Assembly: GCA_036514755.1 (NCBI GenBank)
Contig: DATBWN010000063.1
Span: 1-38,142 of the forward strand
Direction of reading: 5' to 3'
From: Dehalococcoidia bacterium
GTDB lineage: Bacteria > Chloroflexota > Dehalococcoidia > DSTF01 > WHTK01
Length of the DNA stretch: 38,142 bases
The stretch's first letter is position 1; each line of letters begins with the position of its first letter. The notes beneath the pieces were generated by a model that was given only the letters and a program-made list of their open reading frames with translations, made no database searches and had not been told where the DNA came from. Positions 786 to 19,836 of this stretch are shown piece by piece. The position numbers and the translations under genes were made by a program.

Positions 786-862
786 GGGCGATTAGCTCAG
801 CTGGTCAGAGCGTCTGTTTTACACACAGAAGGTCGCAGGTTCGAGCCCTGCATCGCCCACCA
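786..862 (+). tRNA. tRNA-Val (anticodon TAC), CCA encoded
   Basis: Hand-folded cloverleaf. Acceptor stem GGGCGAT/ATCGCCC. D stem GCTC/GAGC. Anticodon stem TCTGT/ACAGA with loop TTTACAC (anticodon TAC at 820..822). T stem GCAGG/CCTGC with loop TTCGAGC. Discriminator A followed by CCA. Confidence 0.9.
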
Positions 863-864: not shown

Positions 865-920
865 ACCTAGATTCGATTTGAGGCAAAGGGAAGGCCTTCG
901 GTAGCGTCCTGAGGGCCATT

Positions 921-942
921 TGACGCCAACGCTGACGCCAAC
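921..942 (+). repeat. Tandem TGACGCCAAC x2 (candidate integrase arm-type sites, int-proximal end)
   Basis: TGACGCCAAC-GC-TGACGCCAAC sits ~57 bp inside the left att core. The same tandem is found inside the right end (15414..15435). Confidence 0.55.
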
Positions 943-952
943 CCGCGCAGAA

Positions 953-2080
953 TCAGGCCCTGAGCAACGTCTCCATGGCTTCGACGGCCTGTCGCTGCAT
1001 GGTAGGGGTCACGTGGCTGTAGAGGTCGAGGGTGATGCTGACGCGGCTGTGGCCGAGGCGTTCCGAGACGATCTTCGGATGGATACCCTGGCCGAGCAGG
1101 AGTGTCGCGGCAGTGTGGCGGAGGTCGTGGAAGCGAATCCGCGGGACGCCTGCTTTCGCAAGGAGCGGCTCGAAAGAGCGGCGCCGGAGGTTCGTGTCCT
1201 CAATGGGCTTCCCGACTTCGTTGGCAAAGACGAGGTCGTTGTCTTGCCAAGCTGGACCCTTGAGCAGGCGCTCGGCTGTTTGATTAACCCTGTGACGCCG
1301 AAGTCCGTCGATGGCCAGGCCACCGATGGAAACGTGGCGCCGGCTGCCGGCGGTCTTGGGTTCCGAAATCGTCATGCCTTCCTTCGTCCTTAGAAGCGTC
1401 CCGCGGACAGAGAGGGAGCCCGCGTCCAGGTCAACGTCTCTCCAGCGCAGAGCAAGCAACTCACCGAGACGCATCCCGGTAGTCAGCGCCAGCACATAGA
1501 GAGCCTCTAGGCGGTCTCCCGTCGCGGCATTCAGGAAGCGCCGCGCCTGCTCCGGGTCGAGGGTGCGCATTTCGTGACGCTGAACCCTCGGCGGCGTTAC
1601 CAGGTCGGCGACTTTGCGATGTACTAGGCTCCACCGTGCCGCCTGCTCAAGAGCGCGATGGATTACTGCGTGAAGGTGGCGAACGCTTTGCGGGCTGAGG
1701 CCGGCGGCGAGTCGCTCGGAGTAAAGGCGCTGCAGATGTTGAGGGGTCAGCCGGGAGAGGATCACGCGGCCGATGCCTGGACTAACGTGAAGTCGAATGA
1801 GGCCTTCGTAGGTGACATGTGTCCGGGTCCGTAACGCAGGTTTCGCTGATTCGAGCCAGCTCGCGAGAAACTGAGCGACCGTCTGGCGCTCGTTGACGAC
1901 GGGCAGCCCGTCGCGATGCTTCTTCATGGCGTCGATCAGCTTGCCATTGACCTCCGCCCGCGTCTTACCGAAAAAGTCCTTGCGCTTTCCAATGGGAAGC
2001 GTCATGCGGGCGGTCCAACGCCCGTCCTTGCGCTTGTAGACGCTACCTTCGCCGTTCGCCCGCTTTCTTTCCTTAGCCAT
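953..2080 (-). CDS. int: Tyrosine recombinase / phage-type integrase
   Basis: 375 aa. N-terminal GSVYKRKDGRWTARM (arm-binding-type motif). Catalytic signature LALRWRD (Arg), HDLRHTAATLLL (His-x-x-Arg) and LGHSRVSITLDLYSHV (His, Tyr). Lies 90 bp from tRNA-Val. Confidence 0.92.
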   Translation of the reverse strand: MAKERKRANGEGSVYKRKDGRWTARMTLPIGKRKDFFGKTRAEVNGKLIDAMKKHRDGLPVVNERQTVAQFLASWLESAKPALRTRTHVTYEGLIRLHVSPGIGRVILSRLTPQHLQRLYSERLAAGLSPQSVRHLHAVIHRALEQAARWSLVHRKVADLVTPPRVQRHEMRTLDPEQARRFLNAATGDRLEALYVLALTTGMRLGELLALRWRDVDLDAGSLSVRGTLLRTKEGMTISEPKTAGSRRHVSIGGLAIDGLRRHRVNQTAERLLKGPAWQDNDLVFANEVGKPIEDTNLRRRSFEPLLAKAGVPRIRFHDLRHTAATLLLGQGIHPKIVSERLGHSRVSITLDLYSHVTPTMQRQAVEAMETLLRA

Positions 2081-3619: not shown

Positions 3620-3802
3620 ATGGACGACAAGCTCTTGCTGACGATCCCTGAGGCCGCGCAGCGCGTCGGCCTCGGCCGGAGCAAGCTCTACGAGTTGATT
3701 CAGGCTGGCGACGTGCCGGTGGTAAGGATCGGGCGAGCCGTTCGCATCTCGGCTGAACGCCTGCGCGAGTGGACAGAGAAGCTGGAGCGCGAGCAGGCGT
3801 GA
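3620..3802 (+). CDS. xis: Excisionase-family helix-turn-helix DNA-binding protein
   Basis: 60 aa. LLTIPEAAQRVGLGRSKLYELIQAGDVPVVRIGRAVRI is the typical excisionase/MerR-like HTH_17 pattern. Confidence 0.8.
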   Translation: MDDKLLLTIPEAAQRVGLGRSKLYELIQAGDVPVVRIGRAVRISAERLREWTEKLEREQA

Positions 3803-5919
3803 CCTCCGCGGCCGTTAGCCGAGAGCAGCGCTGGCACCGCTCGAATCCCTGCCCCGTCTGCGGCGGCTGGCCCGGACTCCCGCAGGGCCAGGGGCGGCGC
3901 TGTCACGGTTTCCTGTCGGCGGATGGCCTTTACGCCCACTGCTCCCGCGAGGAGTACAGCGGCGCCATGCAGCCCGGCCGCGACGACCTCTACGCTCACC
4001 TTCTCGCGGGTGCGTGTCGCTGCGGGCGTCAGCATGGAGCCAATGCGGCGCCTGCCAGTGGCATAAACGGAGCGAAAACGGGCAAGCGCCTGGCCATGAC
4101 GACCCGGTATGAGGTCCGCGACGTTGACGGCCAGCTTGTTGCGGTCCACGTCCGCCGCGACAAACCGGATGGCTCGAAGTCGTTTGCCTGGGCGCGGCCG
4201 GACGGCACGTCGGGCCTGGGCGGGCGTCGCGTCGAGACGCTGCCGCTGTACGGCGCCGAGAAGCTTCGGGAGCTGTCGGACGGCGCCGAGGTCGTCATCA
4301 CGGAGGGCGAGAAGGCATGCGAAGCGCTGCGGGCGCGAGGCGTCGCCGCCCTCGCTACCGTCACAGGCGCACACGGCGCACCTGGCGACGAAGCGCTCCG
4401 CCCGCTGGTGCACCTTGAGCCTGTCCTCTGGGCCGATAACGACGACGAGGGCCGGCGCCACATGGAGCGCATCGCCGCCCGCCTCCGTGCTCTCGGAGCC
4501 CGACCTCGCGTCGTGGCTTGGCCTGATGTGCCTCCAAAGGGCGACGCCGCCGACTTCACGGGTTCGGACGAGGAAGTGCGCGACCTGCTGGACGCGGCGC
4601 GGCCGTGGCAGGCCCCGTCAGGTATCGATCTAGCCGCGCTCCTGGATCAGGTTGTCGCGTTCATCCGCCGGTACGTGGTGATGGACGCGCGGCAGGTGGA
4701 CGCCGCGGCACTCTGGGTCGCACACACGCACGTCATCGAGGTGGCCGACGTAACACCCTACTTGCACGTCACATCGGCGGAGAAGCGGAGCGCAAAGACT
4801 CTCCTGCTGGAGGTCGCCGAGTTGCTGGTAGCGAAGGCATGGCCGACAGGTCGCGTCACCGCAGCAGTTCTGGCCCGAAAGGTGGATGCGGAGCAGCCGA
4901 CGCTTCTCCTAGATGAGAGCGATGCTGCCTTCAATGGCGACAAGGAGTATGGGGAGACGCTGCGAGGCATTCTGAACACTGGCTACCGGCGGGGAGGTGC
5001 CTACTCATGCTGCGTCGGACAGGGCGCCAACCTCACATATCGCGACTTCTCAACCTTTGGGCCGAAGGCTATCGCTGGCCTCGGAAGGCTGCCGGACACG
5101 GTTGCGGATCGGTGCATTCGGATCGAGCTGAAGCGCCAGGCGCCGAACGAGAAGGCAGCGAAGTTCCGTCGGCGTAGGGTCGAGCCGGAGGCGAAGCTAA
5201 TCAGGCGTGATCTGGAGCGCTGGGCGGTCGTTGGCGCACCTATGCTGGGCGATGCGGAGCCGGAAGTACCCGACGCCCTGGACGACCGGGCTGGCGACGT
5301 ATGGGAGCCACTGTTCGCCATCGCTGACCTCGCGGGCGGCGATTGGCCTCAGCGGGCCCGCAGTGCTGCTCTGTCCCTGTCTGCCGGCGACGGGCGCGAG
5401 GACGACTCGCTCGGGGTCCGGCTGCTGTGCGACATCAAGGCCGTCTTCGAGGAGAGGGGAGTCGAGCGTCTACCTAGCGGCGAGCTTGCTACGGCCTTAC
5501 AGCGGATCGAAGAGTCGCCCTGGGGCGACCTGCGTGGCAAGCCCATTGACCCGCCCGGGCTGGCCCGGAGGCTGAAACCTTACGGCGTGAAACCCAAGAA
5601 CGTCCGCCTTGCCCACGACCGCCAGGCGAAGGGATACGAACGGGCGGACTTCGAGGACGCTTGGCGTCGCTACATGCCCAATCAGCCGTCCCACCCGTCC
5701 CAAGCGTCCCAAAGCTCGGATTCAGCTTGGGCGGTTGGGACGGCTGGGACGCCTGGGACGGGCAATCCGGGTGTCGGGAAGACTGACTCGAAGGGCGACG
5801 GTCTCTTCGCCGAGGACCCGGTGGCCTGCCCCGAGTGCGCCGCCCTCATCCCCCCGCCGGCTCGACACTCTGCGCCGCTGCGGGGCAAAGGGCAGCAAGC
5901 TTGTCGCGTATGCCCTTGA
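3799..5919 (+). CDS. Primase-like replication protein: N-terminal Zn-binding motif + Toprim + DUF3631-type domain
   Basis: CPVCGGWPG...CHGF...HC zinc motif. Toprim signature VVITEGEKACEAL ... LWADNDDEGRRH. DUF3631-like block LDQVVAFIRRYVV...AAALWVAHTH...LLLDESDAAF...RGILNTGYRRGG...FGPKAIAGLG..LPDTVADRCIRIEL. The ORF track starts at 3769; I prefer GTG 3799, which overlaps the xis stop as GTGA. Confidence 0.8.
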   Translation: MTSAAVSREQRWHRSNPCPVCGGWPGLPQGQGRRCHGFLSADGLYAHCSREEYSGAMQPGRDDLYAHLLAGACRCGRQHGANAAPASGINGAKTGKRLAMTTRYEVRDVDGQLVAVHVRRDKPDGSKSFAWARPDGTSGLGGRRVETLPLYGAEKLRELSDGAEVVITEGEKACEALRARGVAALATVTGAHGAPGDEALRPLVHLEPVLWADNDDEGRRHMERIAARLRALGARPRVVAWPDVPPKGDAADFTGSDEEVRDLLDAARPWQAPSGIDLAALLDQVVAFIRRYVVMDARQVDAAALWVAHTHVIEVADVTPYLHVTSAEKRSAKTLLLEVAELLVAKAWPTGRVTAAVLARKVDAEQPTLLLDESDAAFNGDKEYGETLRGILNTGYRRGGAYSCCVGQGANLTYRDFSTFGPKAIAGLGRLPDTVADRCIRIELKRQAPNEKAAKFRRRRVEPEAKLIRRDLERWAVVGAPMLGDAEPEVPDALDDRAGDVWEPLFAIADLAGGDWPQRARSAALSLSAGDGREDDSLGVRLLCDIKAVFEERGVERLPSGELATALQRIEESPWGDLRGKPIDPPGLARRLKPYGVKPKNVRLAHDRQAKGYERADFEDAWRRYMPNQPSHPSQASQSSDSAWAVGTAGTPGTGNPGVGKTDSKGDGLFAEDPVACPECAALIPPPARHSAPLRGKGQQACRVCP

Positions 5920-6677: not shown

Positions 6678-7738
6678 ACTTTGCGGAACCGGCCGTGCTC
6701 CCCGACCAGGCCCCGAGGGCGAACGTAAACGCGCTTGCCCGGCTCGCTAGTGACAGTCCCCAGATCGAAGGCCTTGTAGCCTGTCTTCGCCGCGATCTCT
6801 ATCGTGCGGATGGCATCGGCCTTCGGGACGACCGCGACGAAGCCAATTCCCATGTTGTACACGAGTAACATCTCCTCGTCGGAGATTCCACCGCGCTCCT
6901 GGATCAAGTTGAAGATAGCCGGTGCTTCTGGCAGGCGCTCCAGATTAAACGTCACGTCAGCCTCGACGCGAGCAAGGTTGAGGAAGCCATCGCTGGTGAT
7001 GTGCGCGAGCGCCTTCACGTCCACGGCCGACGCCAGCAGCTCTTTGGCGAAGCGAACGTAAATCGTGGTGGGCCGGAGCAGCTCTTCTCCAACCTTGCAG
7101 CCGAGCTCCGGCAGGTGCTCAGACAGGTTCGGGAGCGCCCTGCGCGCGAGCGTGAGCCCATTGCTATGAACGCCAGAGCTGGCCAATCCGATGATCGCGT
7201 CGCCAGATCGAATGCTCTTACCAGTTATCACGCGGTCCAAAGCGACAGTGCCAATACAGGTGCCGACCAGGTCGAAGCCCGAACCCTCAGACACGCCCTT
7301 GATCATGTCTGGAATCTGGGCAAGTTCGCCGCCAGGGATCGAGATTTCGGCCTGACGGGCACCCTCAGCGAACCCAATGCCGAGCTGCTCTAGTAGGTGA
7401 TCGTCCGGCTTCTCGACGGCGATGTAGTCGACCATGCTGATGGGCGTCGCGCCGACGCAGATTACGTCGTTGACGTTCATGGCGACGCAGTCGATGCCGA
7501 TGGTGTCGAACTTTTCGAGGGCCTCCGCGACGAGGATTTTCGTGCCCACGCCATCTGTCGAGATGGCGATGCCGAGATTAGGTGCAACTGGGATGACATT
7601 GGCGTAGTAGCCGAAACCTATGACGGGCCGGGCGTTCGGGGCGAAGTCGAAAGTGGGCGCGAGGCGCTTCAGGAGCGCCTTGAAGCCTGGCATCTCGTCA
7701 GCCGACTTGACTCCGGCACGGCTGTAGGCGGTCTGCAT
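6674..7738 (-). CDS. PurM-like protein (AIR synthase / PurM superfamily)
   Basis: ISTDGVGTKILVA, GIDCVAMNVNDVICVGATP, IPGGELAQ, GLASSGVHSNGLTLARRAL and VYNMGIGFV match the PurM architecture over the full length. ATG 7738 is preferred (GAGG upstream); the ORF-track TTG start is at 7744. Confidence 0.8.
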   Translation of the reverse strand: MQTAYSRAGVKSADEMPGFKALLKRLAPTFDFAPNARPVIGFGYYANVIPVAPNLGIAISTDGVGTKILVAEALEKFDTIGIDCVAMNVNDVICVGATPISMVDYIAVEKPDDHLLEQLGIGFAEGARQAEISIPGGELAQIPDMIKGVSEGSGFDLVGTCIGTVALDRVITGKSIRSGDAIIGLASSGVHSNGLTLARRALPNLSEHLPELGCKVGEELLRPTTIYVRFAKELLASAVDVKALAHITSDGFLNLARVEADVTFNLERLPEAPAIFNLIQERGGISDEEMLLVYNMGIGFVAVVPKADAIRTIEIAAKTGYKAFDLGTVTSEPGKRVYVRPRGLVGEHGRFRKV

Positions 7739-7740
7739 GG

Positions 7741-8046
7741 TCAAGCCTCGCTGGTGACTCTAATCAACGGCTGCCCAATCTGAACGTCGGCGCCGCAGTA
7801 GGCGGTGAAGCGAACCTGTGCGTCGCCCGGCGCTGTGGCTTCGAATCTAGCAAGGTCACTCTTCGAACCGCGACCCTCGATCTCGAACGAAGAGGGAGAA
7901 AGCACGGCTGGCTCGACTTCGACAACGACTCGCCACGCTTCATCGGCACCGATCCCGTCAATCGACCACTGGTAGACGACTATCTCGCCAATTCCAGCGC
8001 TGCCACGTGGCAGCGCCTGACCGAACGGAATCACGGTGAACCTCAT
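7741..8046 (-). CDS. Small beta-rich hypothetical protein immediately upstream of the PurM-like gene
   Basis: The ORF track gives 7741..8238. Its first 64 codons overlap the IS3 remnant region, so I prefer Met65 (ATG 8046): MRFTVIPFGQ... Its stop lies 2 nt from the PurM-like ATG. Confidence 0.45.
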   Translation of the reverse strand: MRFTVIPFGQALPRGSAGIGEIVVYQWSIDGIGADEAWRVVVEVEPAVLSPSSFEIEGRGSKSDLARFEATAPGDAQVRFTAYCGADVQIGQPLIRVTSEA

Positions 8047-8292
8047 TGGTGAAGCCAGTAACAAGGTTATCAGAGGGGAAGCGTAGTGGACATTGGTCGG
8101 GATTGAAGGAGTAGCTGTGACGAGAAGGCGGCTCACGTAGGCGCCAACGCCTCCAGCGGCCCCGCCATTGCCGTGAAGGTAGTCCTCGGGGCGTGCGTCG
8201 TCAAGATGGCGAGAACGCTTCGGAGGAGAGCTTGACAAGTTGGATTTCTACTCGGCCTCGAATCCGGTGCTCGCTCAGCCTCGTCCATATGT

Positions 8293-8575
8293 CTAAACCC
8301 TGTACACCTTGAGCACTTTGAACCGCCCGGGTGATGGAGACTCGGATCGTTGAGTCCCGGCTCCGGCCGGGATGGGTGCAGGGTACCAGGACGCCTCGTA
8401 CTCCGCCGGCGTGATGGCGACTGCGTCGTACGACGCCTCGGAGGCCCAGGTCGCGCATCAGCCGCTTCACTGTGCAGCGGGGCAACGGCGGTCCCTTCGC
8501 GCTTGAGCTGGCGCGAGAGCTTGCGCACGCCGTAGACGCCGAAGTGCTGAGCGTGCACCTGGCCTACTGCGACTC
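8293..8575 (-). pseudogene. IS3-family transposase (OrfB) remnant, frameshifted and internally deleted
   Basis: Minus-strand frames read ...HAQHFGVYGVRKLSRQLKREGTAVA, then after a frameshift RCTVKRLMRDLGLRGVVRR (OrfB N-terminal HTH region). A third frame reads ...ITPAEYEASWY..., the typical IS3 OrfB C-terminal motif, ending in a stop at 8293. The DDE core is absent. Confidence 0.6.
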
Positions 8576-8580
8576 CAACA

Positions 8581-8885
8581 ATGCCAGCCGGCTACTGCTT
8601 GGTCGCAGCCAGCGTCTCCAACGCCGCGCCAAGCCTCAACCAGACGGTAACGGTGACCGGGACATTGACGTGTGGCGCAGCCGGGGTCGGTGGCGCGCCG
8701 ATGACGGCGACCTGGCACCACCGCACGACCACGTCGACCTGCACGGCGACGAGCGGGCAGAGCGGGGCCGCCTCCTGCAGCAGGTCCATCAGGTCTGCGA
8801 CTCCGGGGTTCTTCGTCCGCATCGACGTCTGCTTCGTTCACGTTGGAAGGCAACACTGCGCCCAGACGGGGTCACGCCCCAGTAG
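8581..8885 (+). pseudogene. 3' fragment of an Ig-like/secreted-protein gene, probable frameshift near the end
   Basis: SVSNAAPSLNQTVTVTGTLTCGAAGVGGAPMTATWHHRTTTSTCTATSGQSGAASCSRSI...FVRIDVCF is protein-like and beta-rich. There is no signal peptide and no plausible start. It abuts the IS remnant. The terminal ...GVTPQ* is in a neighbouring frame (stop at 8885). Confidence 0.35.
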
Positions 8886-9049
8886 GCAATCGCGGTCTCT
8901 CCAGCGCCTCTGCCGTCCAGCCGAAGATCACAAGAGAGGCTCGGAGCCACATGACCTCGTCAGGGGCACGCGCATAGACGCGGTTGTCAGCCACGGCGTA
9001 GACTAGGGCGCGTTGTGCTTTCTTAACAGTGGCTCTGCGAGAAGGCTAG

Positions 9050-10741
9050 ATGTCGGAGCCAAGCAGTCCTAGTAAAGAAAGATCGAGGCACCGGTACTCT
9101 CGGAGAGTCAGTGCCCGCGCAGCCTCTGGTTCTCCGCCCTCATTCTTAACTGATCTCCAGGAGCCTTTCGCATCGAATCCCTTCAGGCTGCTCCGCCTTA
9201 AGGCGGGGGCGTCTGTGGCTGAGATCCAAGTAGCCTTAGCAGAAGCTCGCGTTGCGGCGAGGCTATCAAGCACGCTCGATCCGGAGACAGCACTGGATCG
9301 CGTTCGCCGCGCCCAAACCGAATTGTTGGATTCACCTTCGCGAATACGGCATGCTTCGGCGTGGTTCTACGACCCGCCTAACCTCTTGTTTGCCGGGACT
9401 TTTCAGCCAGACGACGAGGTTCTCAGAGGCTATGAGGAGAGATCCCAGCTTGGTGGTGCCGAAGGAGCGCTTTACTTACATGACGCCGCGAACTGGTATC
9501 TAGCACTGGCGCTTCATGCAGGCAAGCCAGGTCAAATCGAAAGCTTCGCTGCTACTGCACTCGAAAAGTGGGAGCTTTTGCTGTCGTGCCGCGATTTCTT
9601 GGCCACTCAGTCACAGCCAGTTCGATTGTCGCCTAACAGCCAGTCACGATGGCCGGAGCATGTGCTCGGTTCTCTTTCGGCTGCAAATGCTCGGCGGTGC
9701 AGAAACGGTGAAACAGAAAACGTGGTCGCGTGCCTGAACGCACTGCGCGTTTTTGGTTGCGAGCGAGATGAAGTACTTCTGGCTGCAGACGGCGCCTTAA
9801 GTTACCTATCTCAGAAGGTCGCTTCTGGGCTTAGCAATGCGCAGGCCAGCCAAACGGAAACAGTGTCTCTGGCCAATACCCTTGCCGACGATGCCTTTCC
9901 CCTCTTCGAACTTCTAACCGCCCTGGGCGAGGATGCACCCAGTCAATACGCCAGCGTCCTGGATGACGTGTGTTCCTTTTTGCGCGGCATCGCCGTGAAT
10001 CTTCATAACGAAAGAAGCGCCACTCAGACCGCCATTGAAGTCATTGAATGTGCTTTGGATTTAGCGATAGGAGCGACGGAAGAGAAGCTTCTAGCTGACC
10101 GAGCCAACCTTCAGGACCAGCAGAGGCAACAACTCGTGGTTACTGCGCTCAACAACTATGCAGCGCATGTTCAGGAAAAAAGGTGGGACGAAGCGAGCAA
10201 CTCGCTAAGTGAAGCTTCCCGCCACGCGCGCTCGCCCGAAGAATTCGCTTTGGTCCAGGCGGCGAGGAATGCTCTAGAAAAGAGGCGCCGGGGTCTCGTT
10301 GGGGCTTTACGCGGCGTGTTGGGCACCATAGCGGTGATCGGAGTGATCGCGGCCATTCGTTTGGCCGCGAGTTCATCGGACGATGGAACTAGCGCGGGAA
10401 GTTCCCCGGGCTCAGCCCCTCCCGCCATCCAGCCATCCACAAACTCTGAACGAGAGAGACTGGGACAACAGATAGAGTCCAACAAGGCCAGGCTGGCGCA
10501 ACTTGCTGCTCAAGTCGATGGACTCGACAGTCGCCTCAACAGCCTCGAAGCGCAGATGAACTCGATTGTCAGAACCTATGGTGTCGGCAACGCCCTTCGC
10601 GAGCCCGGCTATAGTCAGTACGAATCCCTACGGGCTCAATACAACGGCTTAGTCTCTCAACGAAACACCGTCACTAAGGAATATGACGATCTTCTCTCGC
10701 AGACAAACTTGCTGATAAGCCGTTATAACTCTCTCAGATAA
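9050..10741 (+). CDS. Membrane-anchored coiled-coil protein with N-terminal J-domain-like segment lacking HPD
   Basis: 563 aa. NPFRLLRLKAGASVAEIQVALAEARVAA...ALDRVRRAQTELLDSPSR follows the helix I-III pattern of J domains, but no His-Pro-Asp occurs anywhere. Single TM LVGALRGVLGTIAVIGVIAAIRLAA (KRRRG before it, SSSDDG after it). The C-terminal ~100 aa are heptad-rich (ERERLGQQIESNKARLAQLAAQVDGLDSRLNSLEAQMNS...). Confidence 0.7.
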   Translation: MSEPSSPSKERSRHRYSRRVSARAASGSPPSFLTDLQEPFASNPFRLLRLKAGASVAEIQVALAEARVAARLSSTLDPETALDRVRRAQTELLDSPSRIRHASAWFYDPPNLLFAGTFQPDDEVLRGYEERSQLGGAEGALYLHDAANWYLALALHAGKPGQIESFAATALEKWELLLSCRDFLATQSQPVRLSPNSQSRWPEHVLGSLSAANARRCRNGETENVVACLNALRVFGCERDEVLLAADGALSYLSQKVASGLSNAQASQTETVSLANTLADDAFPLFELLTALGEDAPSQYASVLDDVCSFLRGIAVNLHNERSATQTAIEVIECALDLAIGATEEKLLADRANLQDQQRQQLVVTALNNYAAHVQEKRWDEASNSLSEASRHARSPEEFALVQAARNALEKRRRGLVGALRGVLGTIAVIGVIAAIRLAASSSDDGTSAGSSPGSAPPAIQPSTNSERERLGQQIESNKARLAQLAAQVDGLDSRLNSLEAQMNSIVRTYGVGNALREPGYSQYESLRAQYNGLVSQRNTVTKEYDDLLSQTNLLISRYNSLR

Positions 10742-10756
10742 GGGGAGCAGGTCACC

Positions 10757-11125
10757 ATGGCCGACGATCCCGACGCCTCAGCTCACAATTCCGATAGACT
10801 CGCCGCGATTATTGCGGAGTTGGCGCGAGACATCTGGCGGCTTCATTCAACCGTCGCACGCCTGTCTCAGAGCGGCGAGGCCATGCCAGAAGCTCTTGCT
10901 GCACTGGTGGAGCGTTTACAAGAGGACTTGACAATCAGTGGAATCGAGCTCATCGAGCCCACGGGCCAACCTTACGACAAGAACTCGACCTTTGAAATCG
11001 CTTTCGTGGCCGGGGGCCAAGGTGACTTGTTCATCTCGGAGACGATCACGCCGGGGGTGAGAATCGGAGGGAAACTGGTCGCCAAGCCTAAGGTTGCCCT
11101 CGCAGCAAGGGAGAAGCATCCATGA
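10757..11125 (+). CDS. GrpE-like nucleotide-exchange-factor homologue (short)
   Basis: 122 aa. ISGIELIEPTGQPYDKNSTFEIAFVAGGQGDLFISETITPGVRIGGKLVAKPKVALAARE parallels the E. coli GrpE C-terminus ([24 protein letters not shown]...[22 protein letters not shown]). SD GGGGAG lies upstream. The stop overlaps the next start as ATGA. Confidence 0.6.
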   Translation: MADDPDASAHNSDRLAAIIAELARDIWRLHSTVARLSQSGEAMPEALAALVERLQEDLTISGIELIEPTGQPYDKNSTFEIAFVAGGQGDLFISETITPGVRIGGKLVAKPKVALAAREKHP

Positions 11126-13590
11126 GACAGACGATCGACATAGGCATTGATCTGGGCACAACTAATTCCGCTGTGGCCGTAGTAGACAACGGCCGCCCCA
11201 AGGTGCTGAAGGACGACTATGATAATCAGGAACTTCTCCCATCCTACGTTGCTTTCGGCAGTGACGGGTCGGTTCACTGCGGGAATGCCGCGAGGAACGC
11301 ACTGCTGACTGACCCGGAGAACGCTTTCGAAGGTTTCAAGCGACTACTGGGCACGGCCTGGAGGCGAACGGCGCCGGCAACAGGCGTGTCCTATGGTCCC
11401 GAGGACTTGGCCAGCATCATCCTGCAGGAGCTGAGACGGAGAGCAGCTCAATGGCTGAACAAGGAACCGACGGAAGCGGCCATAACCGTCCCTGCCGTCT
11501 TTGGAGAAGTCGAAAAGCACGCTGTTACCCGTGCGGCCCAGTTGGCAGGGTTTCTCAACGTCACGTTAGTGCAGGAGCCAGTTGCTGCGGGACTTTGCTA
11601 TGGCTGGGACAAAACGTCCGAAGAGCGGCCATTTCTGGTCTACGACATCGGCGGCGGTACGTTCGACGCCTCGCTAATGCAGTGCGTCGGGGGACAACTC
11701 ATAGTATTGGGCCACCTGGGTGAGCACACGCTGGGCGGCCGAGATATGGATGACACGATCGCTGGCCAGATCGTTGCTACTCGTCTCGCCGGAAGGATCG
11801 CACCCGGCGAGCTCAACGAGAAGGCGCTGAGACTGTGCTGTGAGGAGGCGAAGAAGCGGCTCTCAAGTCTACCCTCGGCTCAGATTGCACTCGGTGGGAT
11901 GGTTCGTTCCGTTGACGGCCGAAGCATGGACGATGTCATTCCCATAACACGGGACCAGTTTGAGTCGCTTGTCCTGCCGAAAATCGACCAGACGATAAAC
12001 ATTGTCCTGAGACTGCTGAAAGACGCCGGCGTTGATCCACGCGATTTGGCGTCGGTCATCTTGGTTGGCGGTCCAACTCGTATGCCCATCCTCCGGAGGC
12101 GGCTGGAGGAATCCCTCGGCGCGCCAATACTGACAAAGATCGATCCGATGACAGTCGTGGCCCAAGGGGCCGCGCTCTACGCGGCTTCAATCCTTGGGTC
12201 CGCTCCGTCAGGTGACCGAGGTCAGCAGTTACCACACGAAACGAAGATCAGGCTTGCTTTCGATCCCGTGACGAGTCAGCCCTCTATTCCTGTGGGTATC
12301 GCTGCTGGCGATTCAAGATTCGTAGACGGAACAATGGTCAGGTTTCGGAGGCAGGACGGGTTATGGGATAGCGGTCTCGTGAAGCTGCCGGGCGGCAAAG
12401 GCATCGTGCACGTCATGCTCGCTGATTCGCCGGTCTCCGTCTTCAGTGTGGAGCTATTTGGTCCAGGTGGCGATTCAATTCCAGTGGAGCCGGGTACTTT
12501 CCAGATCACGCGCGGGCTGGCAGCCGCGCCCCCCCCGCTCTCAAGGGCGATAGGCGTCCTCGCAGACAGGCCAGATTCACTCTCGAAAAACGATCGATAC
12601 TCGATCTCGATCATCGCCAGCCGCGGTGAGCCTACGCCTTTCACTCACAGAGCGAAGTTTGTCACGACGAAGCCGCTTGCGCCGGGGTCAATTGAACCAG
12701 TGCTCAACGTGGGCTTCTTTGAAGGCCCTGCTCATGAAGAGAGAACCAATCGCCCAGAGCGGTTTCGCAAGATAGGGGTCGTTCCAATCAAAGGAACGGA
12801 CTTCGAGAGACCGATGCCGGCGGGCACTGAAGTCGAGATAACGATTCGTGTCGAAGCGTCTCACGAGGCTGTGGCCCGCGTCTACGTCCCGTCGATCAGT
12901 AGATACTTTGAAGGCAACTTGCTTGAGTTCGGGCTAGAGGAAACGCCGGTCGCCGAGGAGTTGGAGCTCCGAGTGAACCAGCTGGCGGAGCGTTTGAACG
13001 ACCTTGAAGAGGCTTCGGTCGCCGTAGAGCATTTAAAATCGAGGGTGCTGGAAGCAAGACACGAAATAGAGGCTGCGCGAAGCAGTGGCGCCGACAGTCA
13101 CGCTCGGGCTGTGACCATCTTGGAAAGGATCGAGCTTGAGGCAGATGCCGCAGAGGAGCGAGAAGTGCCGCGTCTCGCCCTCGAAGAGCTGGACGGTTAC
13201 TTGGCCCTCGCCGAAGAGATTGTCTCGAACTACGGCGATCCTGAGCATCTGAGGCGTCTGAACCAGCTGAAGCTAGATGCAGAGCGAGCTCGATCGCGAC
13301 AGGATGTGGAAGAGGCCCGTTCAGTTCGAGGGCGTCTTCTTGAGCTGGTAAGTCTCGTCTATTGGAACCAGCCGGGCGCGTGGGTACAGCGATTCCAAGA
13401 ACTCGCTGCCTTTGAGGGTTACCAGGAACAGGAGAGGGCAAGCGGCCTGATTCAGAGGGGCAGGCAAGCTCTCGAATTGGGGGACATGGACATGCTAAAG
13501 AGGGTAGTGCTCGACTTAATTGGCCTCACCCCGCAAACGACCGAGCCAGGGCCTTGGAGCATGTTTGGCGGAATAGCCAGGGCTAGGTGA
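11122..13590 (+). CDS. Hsp70/DnaK-family ATPase with long divergent C-terminal region
   Basis: 822 aa. Actin-fold/Hsp70 motifs are intact: IGIDLGTTNSAVAVV (phosphate-1), LPSYVAF, FKRLLG, VYDIGGGTFDASL (phosphate-2), VILVGGPTRMPILRRRL (adenosine). After ~residue 360 there is a beta-rich and then a long helical/coiled region that I cannot align by eye to the DnaK SBD. Confidence 0.88.
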   Translation: MRQTIDIGIDLGTTNSAVAVVDNGRPKVLKDDYDNQELLPSYVAFGSDGSVHCGNAARNALLTDPENAFEGFKRLLGTAWRRTAPATGVSYGPEDLASIILQELRRRAAQWLNKEPTEAAITVPAVFGEVEKHAVTRAAQLAGFLNVTLVQEPVAAGLCYGWDKTSEERPFLVYDIGGGTFDASLMQCVGGQLIVLGHLGEHTLGGRDMDDTIAGQIVATRLAGRIAPGELNEKALRLCCEEAKKRLSSLPSAQIALGGMVRSVDGRSMDDVIPITRDQFESLVLPKIDQTINIVLRLLKDAGVDPRDLASVILVGGPTRMPILRRRLEESLGAPILTKIDPMTVVAQGAALYAASILGSAPSGDRGQQLPHETKIRLAFDPVTSQPSIPVGIAAGDSRFVDGTMVRFRRQDGLWDSGLVKLPGGKGIVHVMLADSPVSVFSVELFGPGGDSIPVEPGTFQITRGLAAAPPPLSRAIGVLADRPDSLSKNDRYSISIIASRGEPTPFTHRAKFVTTKPLAPGSIEPVLNVGFFEGPAHEERTNRPERFRKIGVVPIKGTDFERPMPAGTEVEITIRVEASHEAVARVYVPSISRYFEGNLLEFGLEETPVAEELELRVNQLAERLNDLEEASVAVEHLKSRVLEARHEIEAARSSGADSHARAVTILERIELEADAAEEREVPRLALEELDGYLALAEEIVSNYGDPEHLRRLNQLKLDAERARSRQDVEEARSVRGRLLELVSLVYWNQPGAWVQRFQELAAFEGYQEQERASGLIQRGRQALELGDMDMLKRVVLDLIGLTPQTTEPGPWSMFGGIARAR

Positions 13591-14459
13591 AGGGTCCCCT
13601 GCAAGCTGGTCAAGTCATCAATCGCACCTACACGATTGAGGCTCTCGTCGGCACTGGTGCATTTGGTGAGGTCTACCTGGTTTCTCACCGTTTTCTCGGG
13701 CAGCAAGCCCTTAAGGTTCTGAAGGCTGGACCGGAAGCTGGTTTCGAGGATGTTCTAGCAGAGGCGCGACTGCTCGTCGATCTCACTCATCCGAATATCG
13801 TCCGTATCTACGATGCGAACGTCTGTGACGAGTTCGGGAAACCATTCGCATTCATGGCAATGGAATATGCGGAAGGCAGAACTCTTGCCAGCCTGATTTC
13901 CACGAGCATAAGGTTGCCAGATTCAACCGTCGTCTCAATAGGTATGCAGGTAGCTTCAGCTCTTGCGGAGACTCACGCTCGAAACCCGCCACTACTTCAT
14001 CGCGATATCAAGCCCTCCAACGTTCTCATCTTTTCTGAAGTTCATAGCCTTCCCGTTGTGAAGGTCTCGGATTATGGCATGGCCACGACTCTAGATCCCG
14101 AGACTCGCCTTACACGCTCAGCAGGCACGATTGCCTTCGCCCCTCCTGAAATGGCATGGGGCGTTACGGACCAGCGCGGGGATGTCTACAGCCTCGGTGT
14201 AACGCTGTATCGGGCGCTGACTGGAGTTCATCCCTTTCCCTTGACTTCCCCGGAGGAGTTGTCAGCGAGTCGCCAATTTACCCACGTGTTAACTAACGGG
14301 CGAAGGAGCATTGCACCTCCATCAAAGCTCCTCATGCGCCGTTCAAATCAGTTGGACGCCGTTGTAATGAAGTGCCTGGAGTTTGACCTCTTCGCCCGAT
14401 TTCGAGATGGCGCTGAGCTTCTTGGCGCTCTGCGAGACGTGGCGGGTTCCTCTGTGTAG
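13587..14459 (+). CDS. Hanks-type Ser/Thr protein kinase, catalytic domain only
   Basis: 290 aa. GTGAFGEVY (G-loop), ALKVLK (VAIK Lys), HRDIKPSNVL (catalytic loop), SDYG (DFG variant), APPE (APE), DVYSLGVTLY. GTG start overlaps the Hsp70-like stop as GTGA. Confidence 0.88.
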   Translation: MKGPLQAGQVINRTYTIEALVGTGAFGEVYLVSHRFLGQQALKVLKAGPEAGFEDVLAEARLLVDLTHPNIVRIYDANVCDEFGKPFAFMAMEYAEGRTLASLISTSIRLPDSTVVSIGMQVASALAETHARNPPLLHRDIKPSNVLIFSEVHSLPVVKVSDYGMATTLDPETRLTRSAGTIAFAPPEMAWGVTDQRGDVYSLGVTLYRALTGVHPFPLTSPEELSASRQFTHVLTNGRRSIAPPSKLLMRRSNQLDAVVMKCLEFDLFARFRDGAELLGALRDVAGSSV

Positions 14460-14499
14460 CACGCCACGGCGTCGCCCGCTCGTCCTCTTCCTCTGGAAG

Positions 14500-14636
14500 T
14501 GGCACCTGCGGGACGTCTGCCTTCGACGATCTCGTTCGTGATTCCGTCCTCGTCGAAGCGGAAGTGACGTAGAGGCACTCCGCATGGCGAGTTGATGACT
14601 GGGTTCTCGATGATGACCGTCGGGCAACCGATCTCC
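14500..14636 (-). pseudogene. Short N-terminal fragment of a Res-like (type III restriction/helicase-type) protein
   Basis: The minus strand reads IGCPTVIIENPVINSPCGVPLRHFRFDEDGITNEIVEGRRPAG, preceded by a stop. From memory this matches the conserved N-terminus (IENPI-NSPF-EP-RHF-FD-GIT-EIVEGRR) of Res-subunit-like helicases. Similarity is lost after ~40 aa. Confidence 0.35.
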
Positions 14637-14810
14637 TATGCGATGTATCGGCTGGCCGAATCATAAGGCGAACGGCCGCAGACTTAAACTGCCGAACACG
14701 GAAGCGTGTAGGATGGAGGAGTGCTGAAACTACGCTTCGTCCTTACGGCAGGGGCAAGGTCAAGCTTGATGGTCCTCAAGTCCTCAGTTCCAAGGAACAG
14801 GCAGTTTTAG

Positions 14811-15077
14811 ATGAACGCAGGCATTGAAGACAGTGCCGACGAGGAGTCAGACGAGCTACTGTCCTCCGTCCAAGCCGGAATGCTCCTTGGCGTCGGGCCC
14901 GAGAGAATGCGCCAGCTCGCGAACGCCGGTGAAGTGCCGGTCATTCACACACCCCTTGGCAGGCTCTTCCGGATGCGTGATGTGGAGGAGCTGATGGAGC
15001 GGCGCGAAGCTCAGGGAGGTGGGGGGCACTGGCTCGCCCGCTTACCCGCCCGCCTCCGACGTAAGCTCCTCAGTTAG
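14811..15077 (+). CDS. HTH DNA-binding protein (excisionase/MerR-like, divergent third copy)
   Basis: 88 aa. LLSSVQAGMLLGVGPERMRQLANAGEVPVIHTPLGRLFRMRDVEELM. Confidence 0.6.
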   Translation: MNAGIEDSADEESDELLSSVQAGMLLGVGPERMRQLANAGEVPVIHTPLGRLFRMRDVEELMERREAQGGGGHWLARLPARLRRKLLS

Positions 15078-15092
15078 GAGGCACGACTGGGC

Positions 15093-15362
15093 GTGGCGTC
15101 GCACCCCACCATCGAGGCGCACCAATTCAGGCCAGGCGAATCAGGCAATCCTAAGGGCCGGCCTCCGACGCCTCTATTTATTCCTGCCCTCCGCCGCTTT
15201 GGCGTCATGCGTCGGAGCGACTTCGACGAGGTAGACATTTGGAAGTTGAAGGCAAGGGAGGCGATAGCATACAGGCTGTGGCAGCTCGCCCTTCAGGGCG
15301 GCGCGCAAGGATTACGCGCGACGAGGCTGCTGGCGGACCTACTCGATGGCCCCATCAGGTAG
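15093..15362 (+). CDS. DUF5681-like small protein
   Basis: 89 aa. The FRPGESGNPKGRPP motif is characteristic of DUF5681 proteins of phages and islands. AGGAGG lies 11 nt upstream of the GTG start. Confidence 0.55.
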   Translation: MASHPTIEAHQFRPGESGNPKGRPPTPLFIPALRRFGVMRRSDFDEVDIWKLKAREAIAYRLWQLALQGGAQGLRATRLLADLLDGPIR

Positions 15363-15413
15363 CCGAGATGCCTATCGCCGAGAAGCAGATCAACCTGGCG
15401 GGAGCGCCATGAT

Positions 15414-15453
15414 TGACGCCAACGTTGACGCCAACCTGTGCGGCTGACGCCAC
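15414..15453 (+). repeat. TGACGCCAAC x2 plus degenerate third copy (candidate integrase arm-type sites, distal end)
   Basis: TGACGCCAAC-GT-TGACGCCAAC at 15414..15435 and TGACGCCAC at 15445..15453, ~120-155 bp inside the right att core. Same orientation as the left-end copies. Confidence 0.55.
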
Positions 15454-15570
15454 CGGCGATGAACGACGGCGAACAATAGGATTCGTGCGAGGTCTTGTTT
15501 CAGATTCAGGAGCGGACGGTTATGGATGGTAGCGGGCGGTGGCGACTGGAGCCGTCCGGACTCCGCATCG

Positions 15571-15619
15571 GTTTTACACACAGAAGGTCGCAGGTTCGAG
15601 CCCTGCATCGCCCACCAAG
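15571..15619 (+). repeat. att site (right): displaced partial 3' half of tRNA-Val
   Basis: 49/49 identity to 816..864. The upstream sequence cannot form a D arm, anticodon stem or acceptor 5' strand, so this is not a functional tRNA. Confidence 0.9.
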
Positions 15620-15621
15620 CG

Positions 15622-18235: not shown

Positions 18236-18359
18236 GCAAGCGCCGGCGGCCGTGCGTAACAAGCTCTTAAAGCGCATGTAACCGGCCGGACACTAAATGG
18301 AAACATCGGTCGCCTATGTTCTCGGCAAGCACCCCGTGCAGACAGAAGGGAAGGAGCCA

Positions 18360-19808: not shown

Positions 19809-19836
19809 TCGACTGGAAGTAGGGAGGTTAGAGAAG

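What the first reader, a model, noticed from the sequence alone, without database searches (positions are those of the whole stretch)
9050..14459. Island-borne four-gene operon: J-like membrane protein + GrpE-like + atypical Hsp70 + Hanks kinase, a candidate novel conflict/defence system
Four same-strand genes are packed with a 15-nt gap carrying an SD (10742..10756), then an ATGA overlap (11122..11125) and a GTGA overlap (13587..13590). This implies one translationally coupled unit. Together they form a complete but non-canonical Hsp70 triad: a J-like partner lacking HPD, a short GrpE-like exchange factor and an 822-aa Hsp70 with intact ATPase motifs. A stand-alone Ser/Thr kinase is welded onto this triad. 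The operon is cargo of a tRNA-integrated mobile element and is bracketed by an IS3 remnant and a Res-like helicase fragment. That is the kind of neighbourhood where defence or addiction modules accumulate. Housekeeping dnaK-grpE-dnaJ loci do not carry a kinase, a TM-anchored J-like protein or a ~450-aa alternative C-terminus. Known precedents are only partial: E. coli HscC with membrane-anchored DjlB/DjlC, and Hanks kinases in phage defence such as Stk2 and the TerY-P triad. I know of no described system with this composition.
Basis: partly seen in the sequence, partly recalled or inferred. Interest (0 to 1): 0.88.

Follow-up and report, generated by a model that had tools for sequence, protein, structure and literature searches.

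The report
Mobile Hsp70–GrpE–J-like–kinase operon
A 14.7-kb mobile element in an uncultured Dehalococcoidia genome carries a conserved four-gene operon (membrane J-like protein, mini-GrpE, long atypical Hsp70, protein kinase) that elsewhere sits beside known anti-phage genes and swaps its last gene for TIR or AAA+ fusions, so it is a well-supported but untested candidate for a new chaperone-driven defence system.

Summary
Four same-strand ORFs lie at 9050-14459, joined by a 15-nt gap with GGGGAG, then an ATGA and a GTGA overlap.

- **B** is a true short GrpE, shown by profile and by fold.
- **C** is an Hsp70 with every ATPase catalytic residue conserved. Its C-terminus is not "alternative". 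It is a beta-sandwich insert, a diverged DnaK-type substrate-binding domain with lid, and an extra helical bundle.
- **A** is a single-pass, N-in membrane protein with a weak J-like domain that lacks HPD.
- **D** is an intact stand-alone Hanks kinase.

The operon is cargo of a tRNA-Val integrative element, with an integrase and 55-nt att repeats at 810-864 and 15565-15619.

The module recurs in about 19 unrelated loci. The kinase stays linked in 12 of them, even when gene order changes, and is sometimes fused to TIR or to an AAA+ domain. Neighbours include Hma, BREX, GmrSD, AIPR, type I restriction genes, integrases and IS elements.

No description of this composition was found in PADLOC v2 or in the searchable literature.

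Best reading (about 0.5): a membrane-anchored Hsp70 switch with its own exchange factor that gates a kinase-type effector in a conflict or defence system. Function is inferred, not shown.

The parts
786..862 (+). tRNA-Val(TAC), integration target. Its 3' half (810-864) is the attL core.
   Evidence: ARAGORN; Rfam tRNA 72.9 bits; 55-nt direct repeat.
920..948 (.). 29-nt repeat copy 1 (TTGACGCCAACGCTGACGCCAACC...), a possible arm-type integrase site.
   Evidence: Direct repeat with 15413-15441, 90% identity. The function is inferred.
953..2080 (-). Tyrosine integrase of the element.
   Evidence: Pfam Phage_integrase 2e-24 and Phage_int_SAM_3 4e-10.
3769..5919 (+). Primase/DUF3631 protein of the element.
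   Evidence: Pfam DUF3631 2e-58; PHROG 239 DNA primase/helicase 1.7e-17.
8133..8558 (-). Frameshifted IS3-type transposase remnant (weak support).
   Evidence: Two sub-threshold HTH_21 fragments in adjacent frames, covering profile positions 14-38 and 40-60.
9050..10741 (+). Gene A: 563-aa single-pass membrane protein. Cytoplasmic J-like domain without HPD (aa ~38-105), ~300-aa helical region, TM helix (aa ~417-445, nt ~10298-10384), Ser/Pro-rich linker and extracytoplasmic coiled coil (aa ~462-563).
   Evidence: ORF. J-like. TM helix and positive-inside signal (KRRRG before the helix, SSSDDG after it). Coiled-coil family hits at 464-555. Conserved architecture in homologues. A weak PG_binding_1 hit after the TM helix in the L020 homologue.
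10742..10756 (+). 15-nt A-B spacer with a GGGGAG Shine-Dalgarno-like motif.
   Evidence: Sequence read directly.
10757..11125 (+). Gene B: 122-aa short GrpE-type nucleotide exchange factor (two helices plus a six-strand beta domain; no long N-terminal tail).
   Evidence: Profile against PDB GrpE: 4ani 3.4e-5, plus 3a6m, 8gb3 and 1dkg. 22 of 64 homologues hit Pfam GrpE. AF2 model pLDDT 95. The 12 best Foldseek hits are all GrpE or GrpEL1.
11122..12201 (+). Gene C, nucleotide-binding domain (aa 1-360) of the 822-aa Hsp70.
   Evidence: Pfam HSP70 1.5e-77 over aa 7-358. 32% identity to E. coli DnaK NBD. D8, T11, K70, E171, D194, T199 and D201 are invariant in 118-119 of 119 family members, while R167, N170 and T173 are replaced.
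12241..12513 (+). Gene C, ~100-aa beta-sandwich insert (aa ~374-464) between the NBD/linker and the substrate-binding domain.
   Evidence: AF2 model of aa 365-822, six strands, pLDDT ~90. No PDB sequence match for this part.
12547..13233 (+). Gene C, diverged DnaK-type substrate-binding beta domain (aa ~476-599) and helical lid (aa ~611-704).
   Evidence: Profile A1 against PDB DnaK SBD, 8.5e-8. Foldseek top hits are DnaK, BiP and HscA SBDs at probability 1.0.
13240..13590 (+). Gene C, extra C-terminal helical bundle (aa ~707-800) and a conserved terminal G-h-R strand.
   Evidence: AF2 secondary structure. Conserved across the family.
13587..14459 (+). Gene D: 290-aa stand-alone Hanks-type Ser/Thr kinase (GTGAFGEVY, ALKVLK, HRDIKPSN, DYG, APPE).
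   Evidence: Pfam Pkinase 2.2e-39. Motif alignment with operon-linked homologues.
14811..15077 (+). Excisionase-like HTH protein of the element.
   Evidence: Pfam HTH_17 3e-4, below threshold. PHROG 66 excisionase 1.4e-5.
15093..15362 (+). DUF5681 protein of the element.
   Evidence: Pfam DUF5681 5e-11.
15413..15441 (.). 29-nt repeat copy 2.
15565..15619 (+). attR: a 55-nt copy of the 3' half of tRNA-Val (96% identity; the last 49 nt are identical). It marks the right end of the ~14.75-kb element.
   Evidence: the repeat finder family D1. Only a partial tRNA, 18 bits.

Best explanation
The operon encodes a self-contained, membrane-anchored Hsp70 machine that works as an ATP-driven switch on a kinase-type output. 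It travels as cargo of mobile elements and defence islands as a conflict module, most likely anti-phage or abortive infection.

**Shown here**
- C is an Hsp70 with a catalytically complete ATPase and a diverged substrate-binding domain.
- B has the GrpE fold.
- A is a single-pass membrane protein with a conserved N-terminal J-like motif that lacks HPD.
- D is a kinase with all catalytic motifs.
- The four genes are translationally coupled, co-inherited and carried on an integrative element.

**Inferred**
1. A sits N-in, C-out. Its cytoplasmic J-like and helical region recruits and loads C at the membrane through a non-canonical interface. The DnaK residues that contact HPD (R167, N170, T173) are replaced in C throughout the family.
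2. B resets C by nucleotide exchange, so C cycles.
3. In the resting state C holds D, or the A-D complex, inactive as a client.
4. A trigger shifts the cycle and frees or assembles D. The trigger could be envelope perturbation sensed by the external coiled coil of A, or phage proteins that titrate C.
5. D then phosphorylates host or invader proteins and stops growth or infection.

In relatives the same slot holds TIR-pseudokinase or kinase-like-AAA+ fusions. This suggests that the kinase fold is the coupling module and that the enzymatic output is interchangeable.
For: **Anatomy**
- ORFs and junctions.
- GrpE.
- Hsp70 NBD.
- SBD.
- J-like domain.
- Topology of A.
- Kinase motifs.

**Co-inheritance**
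- A-B-C-D order in L002, L004/5, L007/17, L008/14-16 and L009; C-D in L010 and L013.
- The kinase stays linked after reshuffling: A-D-B-C in L020, D-x-B-C in L029, B-C-D in L031.
- D is the best-conserved partner and A the least: about 50-53% against about 31-33% identity, where C is about 40-42%.

**Variable output slot**
- TIR_2-kinase fusion with HGY in place of HRD in L019.
- Kinase-like (HNE) fused to a Cdc48-type AAA+ domain in Haliscomenobacter hydrossis pHALHY02.
- AAA+ alone in a Vibrio rumoiensis plasmid.
- An unknown 628-aa protein in L030.

**Neighbourhood**
- HmaB and HmaC at about 553 bits each, next to D in L002.
- BrxL and PglZ in pHALHY02.
- A GmrSD/HEC-06-type enzyme in L020.
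- AIPR in L029.
- HsdR, an nSTAND NTPase, relaxases and TraG in L014-16.
- Integrases or IS elements in L004, L017, L018/19 and L030.
- In the window itself: a tRNA-Val integrative element with att repeats, where GC is 0.56-0.59 against 0.65-0.73 in the flanks.

**Rarity and patchiness**
- Only 64 B-family clusters at 50% identity among 1.84 billion representatives.
- Almost absent from GTDB species genomes.

**Conceptual precedents in the literature**
- Predicted Hsp70+GrpE+DnaJ themes in conflict systems (PMC7159879).
- CnuD Hsp70-like proteins in CoCoNuT systems (PMC11090510).
- DnaK-like fusions to EACC1-protease modules (PMC12642450).
Against: - There is no experimental evidence of any kind.
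- The neighbourhood sample is small (about 19 loci) and was not tested statistically against a background.
- Some loci have ordinary neighbours: L001 lies beside a cytochrome oxidase operon, and L031 beside greA and an aminoacyl-tRNA synthetase.
- A large Myxococcota branch of the same long Hsp70 family lies in big chromosomes without B or D, which could indicate a cellular role.
- A, B and C match nothing in PADLOC v2.
- The PADLOC kinase hits (PD-T4-6, 173 bits) are no better than generic kinase similarity (PknB model, 166 bits).
- The system was not found in viral contigs or phage genomes.
- The J-like assignment is statistically weak. A-C and C-D contacts were not modelled.
- A-B-C loci without a kinase show that D is not essential to the core.
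Confidence: 0.5

Rival explanations
1. A dedicated envelope or proteostasis stress-signalling module, not an immune system. The membrane protein A reports envelope state. The Hsp70 with its exchange factor buffers or titrates the kinase, in the manner of BiP with IRE1/PERK or DnaK with sigma-32. The kinase then reprograms the cell. Mobile elements carry the module as adaptive cargo.
For: - The parts are ordinary signalling and chaperone parts.
- Some loci have housekeeping neighbours.
- Myxococcota relatives of C are chromosomal.
- The known specialised bacterial Hsp70 HscC works with membrane-anchored J proteins and has no immune role (PMC8215388).
Against: - Repeated adjacency to Hma, BREX, GmrSD, AIPR and type I restriction genes.
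- A TIR fusion in the output slot.
- Very patchy, rare distribution, and carriage on integrative or conjugative elements.
Confidence: 0.22
2. An addiction (toxin-antitoxin-like) module that stabilises the mobile element. The kinase is a toxin kept in check by the Hsp70 system, analogous to toxin-antitoxin-chaperone loci.
For: - The operon is the main intact cargo of an integrative element.
- Kinase toxins and chaperone-dependent TA systems are known (10.1101/2024.02.24.581848, listed; abstract only read).
- TA genes lie near the Vibrio plasmid homologue.
Against: - Four large genes, including a 563-aa membrane protein, are far more than addiction needs.
- A-B-C occurs without any kinase.
- No labile antitoxin-like small protein is present.
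- This reading overlaps with abortive-infection defence rather than excluding it.
Confidence: 0.1
3. A private chaperone system whose only job is the folding, insertion or assembly of protein A (or of a surface structure that A builds). In this reading the kinase is a regulator of that assembly.
For: - A, B and C form the invariant core, while the fourth gene varies.
- Homologues of A carry peptidoglycan-binding, zinc-ribbon or ParA-like additions.
- OmpA-like and PG-binding genes follow the operon in L029 and in the Vibrio plasmid.
Against: It does not explain the TIR or AAA+ fusions, the defence-gene neighbourhoods, or why such a system would be mobile and rare.
Confidence: 0.1

Closest known systems
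DnaK-DnaJ-GrpE chaperone machine
   Same: An Hsp70 with a complete ATPase active site and an SBD-beta/lid; a GrpE-fold exchange factor; a partner with a J-like helical motif. All three are encoded together.
   Different: - C scores far below the DnaK, HscA and HscC equivalog cut-offs (235-252 bits against 620-823 bits).
- C carries a ~100-aa beta-sandwich insert and an extra helical bundle.
- The DnaK residues that contact HPD are replaced family-wide.
- The J-like partner lacks HPD and is a membrane protein.
- GrpE is cut down to 122 aa.
- A kinase is co-translated with the other three.
- The locus is mobile.
E. coli HscC with membrane-anchored DjlB/DjlC
   Same: A specialised Hsp70 paralogue that works with membrane-anchored co-chaperones. 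Both show a deletion in NBD lobe I around DnaK residues 76-101.
   Different: - HscC is 550-580 aa and needs no exchange factor.
- DjlB and DjlC have canonical J domains (PMC8215388).
- Here there is a dedicated GrpE, no HPD, an 822-aa Hsp70, a kinase, and a mobile context.
Predicted GTPase-centric conflict systems with Hsp70 + GrpE + DnaJ-FNIII (GAP1-N2 theme; Kaur et al. 2020, PMC7159879)
   Same: Hsp70 and GrpE are recruited into a predicted conflict system. A separate theme in the same class has a kinase.
   Different: - Those systems are built around GAP1-N2 GTPases with FNIII-repeat proteins.
- Their kinase theme comes with a PP2C phosphatase and a vWA protein.
- No GTPase, FNIII, PP2C or vWA domain was found in A-D.
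CoCoNuT CnuD Hsp70-like proteins (PMC11090510)
   Same: An Hsp70-like NBD/SBD with added helical repeats inside defence superoperons.
   Different: CnuD belongs to McrBC-type systems and has degenerate ATPase motifs. Here the ATPase residues are invariant, no McrB or McrC is present, and a GrpE and a kinase are.
Kinase-based defences: Stk2, PD-T4-6, TerY-P (from my own knowledge of Depardieu 2016, Vassallo 2022 and Gao 2020; not read here)
   Same: A Hanks-type kinase as a likely effector. D matches PADLOC PD-T4-6 and mad6 models.
   Different: Those are single-gene systems, or triads with vWA and PP2C. The PADLOC scores (173 bits) are similar to generic kinase models (166 bits). None involves an Hsp70, GrpE or J-like partner.

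Membership tests
Hsp70 superfamily (protein C) | Actin-like NBD with catalytic residues equivalent to DnaK D8, K70, E171, D194 and T199. | tested here: met
   Pfam HSP70 1.5e-77. These residues are invariant in 118-119 of 119 homologues.
Hsp70 superfamily (protein C) | Substrate-binding beta domain plus helical lid. | tested here: met
   Profile against PDB DnaK SBD 8.5e-8. Foldseek gives DnaK, BiP and HscA SBDs at probability 1.0.
DnaK / HscA / HscC equivalogs | Score above the curated NCBIfam cut-off for the whole protein. | tested here: not met
   HscA 252 bits against cut-offs of 709 and 620. DnaK 235 bits against cut-offs of 648 and 823.
DnaK-type J-domain docking site | R167, N170 and T173 (DnaK numbering), which contact the HPD loop. 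This is established knowledge from the DnaK-J-domain structure 5NRO, recalled from memory. | tested here: not met
   Family-wide, R167 becomes E, P, V or T (never R), N170 becomes Q, and T173 becomes I or V.
GrpE (protein B) | GrpE fold: paired helices followed by a C-terminal beta domain. | tested here: met
   AF2 pLDDT 95. Foldseek ranks 1-12 are all GrpE or GrpEL1, then E jumps from 0.04 to 0.5.
GrpE (protein B) | Sequence match to Pfam GrpE (PF01025). | tested here: inconclusive
   B itself has no hit at E<=1. 22 of 64 family members do, best 3.6e-7. The family profile hits four PDB GrpEs, best 3.4e-5.
GrpE (protein B) | Nucleotide-exchange activity on its Hsp70. | not testable with these tools
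   Needs biochemistry.
J-domain proteins (protein A) | HPD tripeptide between helices II and III. | tested here: not met
   The aligned position reads L-S-S/T in the window and L-G-S-D/N in homologues.
J-domain proteins (protein A) | J-domain helix II/III sequence pattern. | tested here: inconclusive
   Eight of the ten PDB hits are J domains aligned in register, but at E 0.06-1.2. Pfam DnaJ matches 3 of 8 homologues, best 0.0024. No structure model was made.
Hanks-type Ser/Thr kinases (protein D) | Gly-rich loop, VAIK Lys, HRD Asp, DFG Asp and APE motifs. | tested here: met
   Pfam Pkinase 2.2e-39. GTGAFGEVY, ALKVLK, HRDIKPSN, DYG and APPE are present.
PD-T4-6 single-gene kinase defence | Specific match to PD-T4-6 models, and a stand-alone gene. 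| tested here: inconclusive
   Best PADLOC model scores 172.6 bits over its full length, against 166 bits for the generic PknB model. The gene is not stand-alone; it overlaps the stop codon of C.
TerY-P triad | vWA (TerY) plus PP2C phosphatase plus kinase. | tested here: not met
   No vWA or PP2C domain in A-D or in the other element proteins scanned.
GAP1-N2 GTPase-centric Hsp70/GrpE conflict systems (Kaur 2020) | A GAP1-N2 TRAFAC GTPase with FNIII-repeat proteins. | tested here: not met
   No GTPase or FNIII hit in the operon or in the other element proteins scanned.
tRNA-integrated integrative element | Tyrosine integrase next to a tRNA, with a direct repeat of the tRNA 3' end at the far boundary. 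| tested here: met
   Integrase 953-2080. 55-nt repeat at 810-864 and 15565-15619, 96% identity. An excisionase-like gene is present.
Anti-phage defence system | Protection against phage on expression. | not testable with these tools
   Only guilt by association is available.

The most novel reading that the evidence does not exclude
This is a fourth kind of bacterial Hsp70 machine, beside DnaK, HscA and HscC. Its dedicated role would be immune: a membrane-anchored, GrpE-reset Hsp70 switch that senses infection at the envelope or by chaperone titration, and releases interchangeable kinase, TIR or AAA+ effectors. It would be the first Hsp70-centred prokaryotic defence system.
Probability: 0.38. 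Interest if true: 0.9.

Novelty: new variant of a known kind. Interest (0 to 1): 0.77.

Why it matters
Reviews of bacterial Hsp70s recognise three types: DnaK, HscA and HscC (PMC8215388). This family adds another. It has its own minimal GrpE, a J-like membrane partner without HPD, and a remodelled J-docking surface. That makes it a natural experiment on how Hsp70 cycles can be rewired.

If the conflict reading is right, a general protein-remodelling motor has been recruited as the sensor or switch of an immune module with swappable outputs. This would parallel chaperone-gated kinases and NLRs in eukaryotes.

A homologue lies next to BREX on a plasmid of a cultured strain, Haliscomenobacter hydrossis DSM 1100. 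The idea is therefore directly testable.

Tried and rejected
1. **PADLOC v2 on A, B and C.** No meaningful hits; only D matches kinase models.
2. **Word-indexed homologue search with A.** It returned only the window's own protein and one relative. Homologues of A had to be taken from neighbourhoods instead.
3. **GTDB genome scans.** A2 found nothing. A9 found one MAG. No organism-level census was therefore possible, and the window's own genome is not in that collection.
4. **Viral contigs (two alignments) and phage genomes.** No relatives. The GrpE-like protein has no plasmid match by tblastn.
5. **The tRNA next to the operon.** Rfam does not support ARAGORN's 94-nt tRNA-Gly. It was reinterpreted as attR.
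6. **14-nt repeat at 8190/15664.** Rejected as the element boundary, because a repeat this short is near chance expectation, in favour of the 55-nt tRNA repeat.
7. **Promoter and terminator scan.** Nothing above the shuffled expectation.
8. **Res-like helicase fragment.** No family hit in any frame.
9. **Literature.** Seven searches found precedents but no description of this composition. The component-modularity preprint has no Hsp70 term.
10. **'C-terminus unrelated to Hsp70'.** Rejected.
11. **Filing D as PD-T4-6.** Rejected as unspecific.

Full report
**1. Observation**

- A: 9050-10741, 563 aa
- B: 10757-11125, 122 aa
- C: 11122-13590, 822 aa
- D: 13587-14459, 290 aa, GTG start

The junctions are exact. 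TAA ends A at 10741. The 15-nt spacer GGGGAGCAGGTCACC precedes the ATG of B. B and C share ATGA at 11122-11125. C and D share GTGA at 13587-13590. No promoter- or terminator-like site inside the block exceeds the shuffled expectation. GC is 0.56-0.59 across 9-15 kb, against 0.65-0.73 in the right-hand flank.

**2. What each protein is**

*C (Hsp70).* Pfam HSP70 covers only aa 7-358 (1.5e-77). NCBIfam scores for HscA and DnaK (252 and 235 bits) are far below their cut-offs. So C is an Hsp70, but none of the named types.

- The NBD is 32% identical to E. coli DnaK, with a ~25-residue deletion in lobe I.
- Across 119 full-length relatives, D8, T11, K70, E171, D194, T199 and D201 (DnaK numbering) are invariant.
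- The residues that dock the HPD loop of J domains are replaced: R167 to E/P/V/T, N170 to Q, T173 to I/V.
- The C-terminal 458 residues are not unrelated to Hsp70. A 14-sequence profile hits DnaK substrate-binding domains (8.5e-8).
- An AlphaFold model of aa 365-822 (pLDDT 84) shows four parts: a six-strand beta-sandwich (aa ~374-464), an SBD-beta (aa ~476-599), a lid (aa ~611-704), and a further helical bundle (aa ~707-800).
- Foldseek returns DnaK, BiP and HscA SBDs.

*B (GrpE-like).* B has no Pfam, NCBIfam or PADLOC hit on its own.

- An exhaustive HMMER search found 64 small relatives.
- Their profile hits four PDB GrpEs, with 4ani at 3.4e-5.
- 22 of the 64 match Pfam GrpE.
- The model (pLDDT 95) has two helices and a six-strand beta domain.
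- Its 12 best structural matches are all GrpE or GrpEL1.

B is therefore a truncated GrpE.

*A (membrane J-like protein).* A has no family hit beyond coiled-coil noise at aa 464-555.

- It has one strong hydrophobic helix (aa ~417-445), with KRRRG before it and SSSDDG after it. This implies an N-in, C-out topology. The same layout holds in six homologues.
- One homologue has a weak peptidoglycan-binding hit after the helix.
- The conserved N-terminal motif is (L)QEPFASNPFRvLRLpagAS..qIr....e.r...RL........l..l..Aq.eLlDp.kR..h...WFY.
- This motif aligns in register with J domains. Eight of the ten PDB hits are J domains at E 0.06-1.2. Pfam DnaJ matches 3 of 8 homologues, best 0.0024. There is no HPD.
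- I treat 'J-like' as probable, not proven.

*D (kinase).* D is a kinase domain and nothing else (Pkinase 2.2e-39), with all catalytic motifs.

**3. The island**

- tRNA-Val lies at 786-862 and is followed by a tyrosine integrase at 953-2080.
- The 3' 55 nt of the tRNA (810-864) recur at 15565-15619 with 96% identity. This bounds a ~14.75-kb element.
- A 29-nt repeat lies just inside each end.
- ARAGORN's 'tRNA-Gly' at 15524-15617 is this attR copy.
- The element also carries a primase/DUF3631 gene, a purM-like gene, an IS3-type remnant (weak), an excisionase-like HTH and a DUF5681 gene.
- An identical copy occurs in a contig from another sample.
- ProA in the flank is 83-85% identical to proteins named 'Dehalococcoidia bacterium', so the host is an uncultured Dehalococcoidia.
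- The 'Res-like helicase fragment' could not be confirmed.

**4. Comparative genomics**

*The Hsp70 family.* C belongs to a large family of ~810-830-aa Hsp70s that are conserved over their full length.

*Gene content of the loci examined.*

| Arrangement | Loci |
|---|---|
| A-B-C-D | L002, L004/5, L007/17 (two A paralogues), L008/14-16, L009 |
| C-D (contig cut) | L010, L013 |
| A-D-B-C | L020 |
| D-x-B-C | L029 |
| B-C-D | L031 |
| A-B-C plus TIR_2-kinase fusion whose HRD is HGY | L018/19 |
| A-B-C, no kinase | L001, L006, L022 |
| A-B-C plus an unknown 628-aa protein | L030 |
| C, then a J-like 118-aa protein, then a 495-aa membrane protein; no B, no D | L003 (Cystobacter fuscus chromosome) |

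In L008/14-16 and L009 the A protein carries an N-terminal zinc-ribbon and ParA-like domain.

*Plasmids of cultured bacteria.*
- Haliscomenobacter hydrossis pHALHY02 encodes a J-like 571-aa protein, a membrane-anchored GrpE-like protein, an 841-aa Hsp70, and a kinase-like (HNE) domain fused to a Cdc48-type AAA+ domain. BrxL and PglZ lie next to it.
- Vibrio rumoiensis plasmid 2 has B, C and an AAA+ ATPase.

*Conservation of the partners.* Where C is about 40-42% identical to the window protein, D is 50-53% and A is 31-33%.

*Neighbours.*
- HmaB and HmaC, about 553 bits each
- A GmrSD/HEC-06-type enzyme
- AIPR
- HsdR, an nSTAND NTPase, relaxases and TraG
- Integrases and IS elements

*Rarity.* The module is rare. 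It is absent from GTDB genomes for the close clade, and one MAG was found for the next clade. It is absent from viral collections.

**5. Mechanism**

*Shown.* The operon encodes a complete Hsp70 ATPase with an SBD, a GrpE-fold partner, a membrane partner with a J-like motif, and an active-looking kinase. They are co-translated and co-inherited on mobile DNA.

*Inferred.*
1. A anchors and loads C at the membrane through a non-HPD interface. This fits the family-wide replacement of the HPD-contact residues in C.
2. B resets C by nucleotide exchange.
3. C keeps D, or an A-D assembly, off until a trigger arrives. The trigger could be envelope perturbation sensed through the external coiled coil of A, or titration of C by foreign proteins.
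4. D then acts as the effector.

The kinase fold persists while its catalytic residues decay in the TIR and AAA+ fusions. This suggests that the fold is the coupling module and that the enzymatic output is interchangeable, a pattern typical of defence systems. I put about 0.5 on this conflict-system reading. The particular order of events is less certain.

*Rivals.*
- A non-immune stress-signalling module (0.22)
- An addiction module (0.1)
- A private assembly chaperone for A (0.1)

**6. Comparison and novelty**

The closest machines are these:
- DnaK-DnaJ-GrpE
- HscC with DjlB/DjlC (PMC8215388)
- The predicted Hsp70+GrpE themes of GTPase-centric conflict systems (PMC7159879)
- CoCoNuT CnuD (PMC11090510)
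- DnaK-like fusions to EACC1-protease modules (PMC12642450)

None has this composition. A, B and C have no meaningful match in PADLOC v2. Seven literature searches found no description of it. I rate it a new variant of a known kind: an Hsp70 machine, or a chaperone-gated conflict system.

**Caveats**
- The neighbourhood sample is small and was not tested statistically.
- No complexes were modelled.
- The function is untested.

Noticed in passing
window 6674-7744 (-): A purM-like gene lies inside the att-bounded mobile element rather than in the host backbone. It scores 316 bits on NCBIfam purM and 215 bits on PHROG 1207 'auxiliary metabolic gene'.
   Followed up: partly
window 920-948 and 15413-15441: A 29-nt direct repeat (TTGACGCCAACG[C/T]TGACGCCAACC, 90% identity) lies just inside both ends of the element. 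In the excised circle the two copies would flank the att core, so they may be arm-type integrase sites.
   Followed up: no
window 15524-15617: ARAGORN calls a 94-nt tRNA-Gly here, but only the 3' half is tRNA-like (Rfam 18 bits). It is the duplicated 3' end of tRNA-Val (attR).
   Followed up: yes
window 2102-3556 (-) and 3769-5919 (+): Two element genes: a 484-aa ORF with no Pfam hit and only a weak HNH-like C-terminus, and a primase/DUF3631 protein. Together they suggest a self-replicating or satellite-like integrative element.
   Followed up: partly
window 13573-13587 (C aa 818-822) and family homologues: The long Hsp70 family ends in a conserved Gly-hydrophobic-Arg motif that AlphaFold models as a short strand. 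It could be an intramolecular pseudo-substrate for the protein's own binding cleft. This was not tested.
   Followed up: no
L033 (Haliscomenobacter hydrossis pHALHY02, record 8539-16064): A homologue in a cultured strain. The GrpE-like domain is fused to a coiled-coil membrane anchor. The kinase-like domain (HNE instead of HRD) is fused to a Cdc48-type AAA+ domain. A TerB gene follows, then BREX genes brxL and pglZ.
   Followed up: partly
L019 9527-10954: A TIR_2 domain is fused to a kinase domain that has lost the catalytic Asp and Lys (HGYISPRN). It occupies the slot held by the kinase in the window.
   Followed up: partly
L015 6709-9528 and L009: Some A homologues carry an N-terminal zinc ribbon plus a ParA/MinD-like ATPase domain in front of the J-like motif.
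   Followed up: no
L029 7001-15749: A 1254-aa variant of the long Hsp70 is followed by an OmpA-like gene, a Clp-type double AAA+ protein and an AIPR abortive-infection gene.
   Followed up: no
window 18267-20957 (-), 24987-28555 (-): Several large ORFs in the GC-rich host flank have no Pfam or NCBIfam match. In sequence this GC-rich, some may be spurious reading frames.
   Followed up: no
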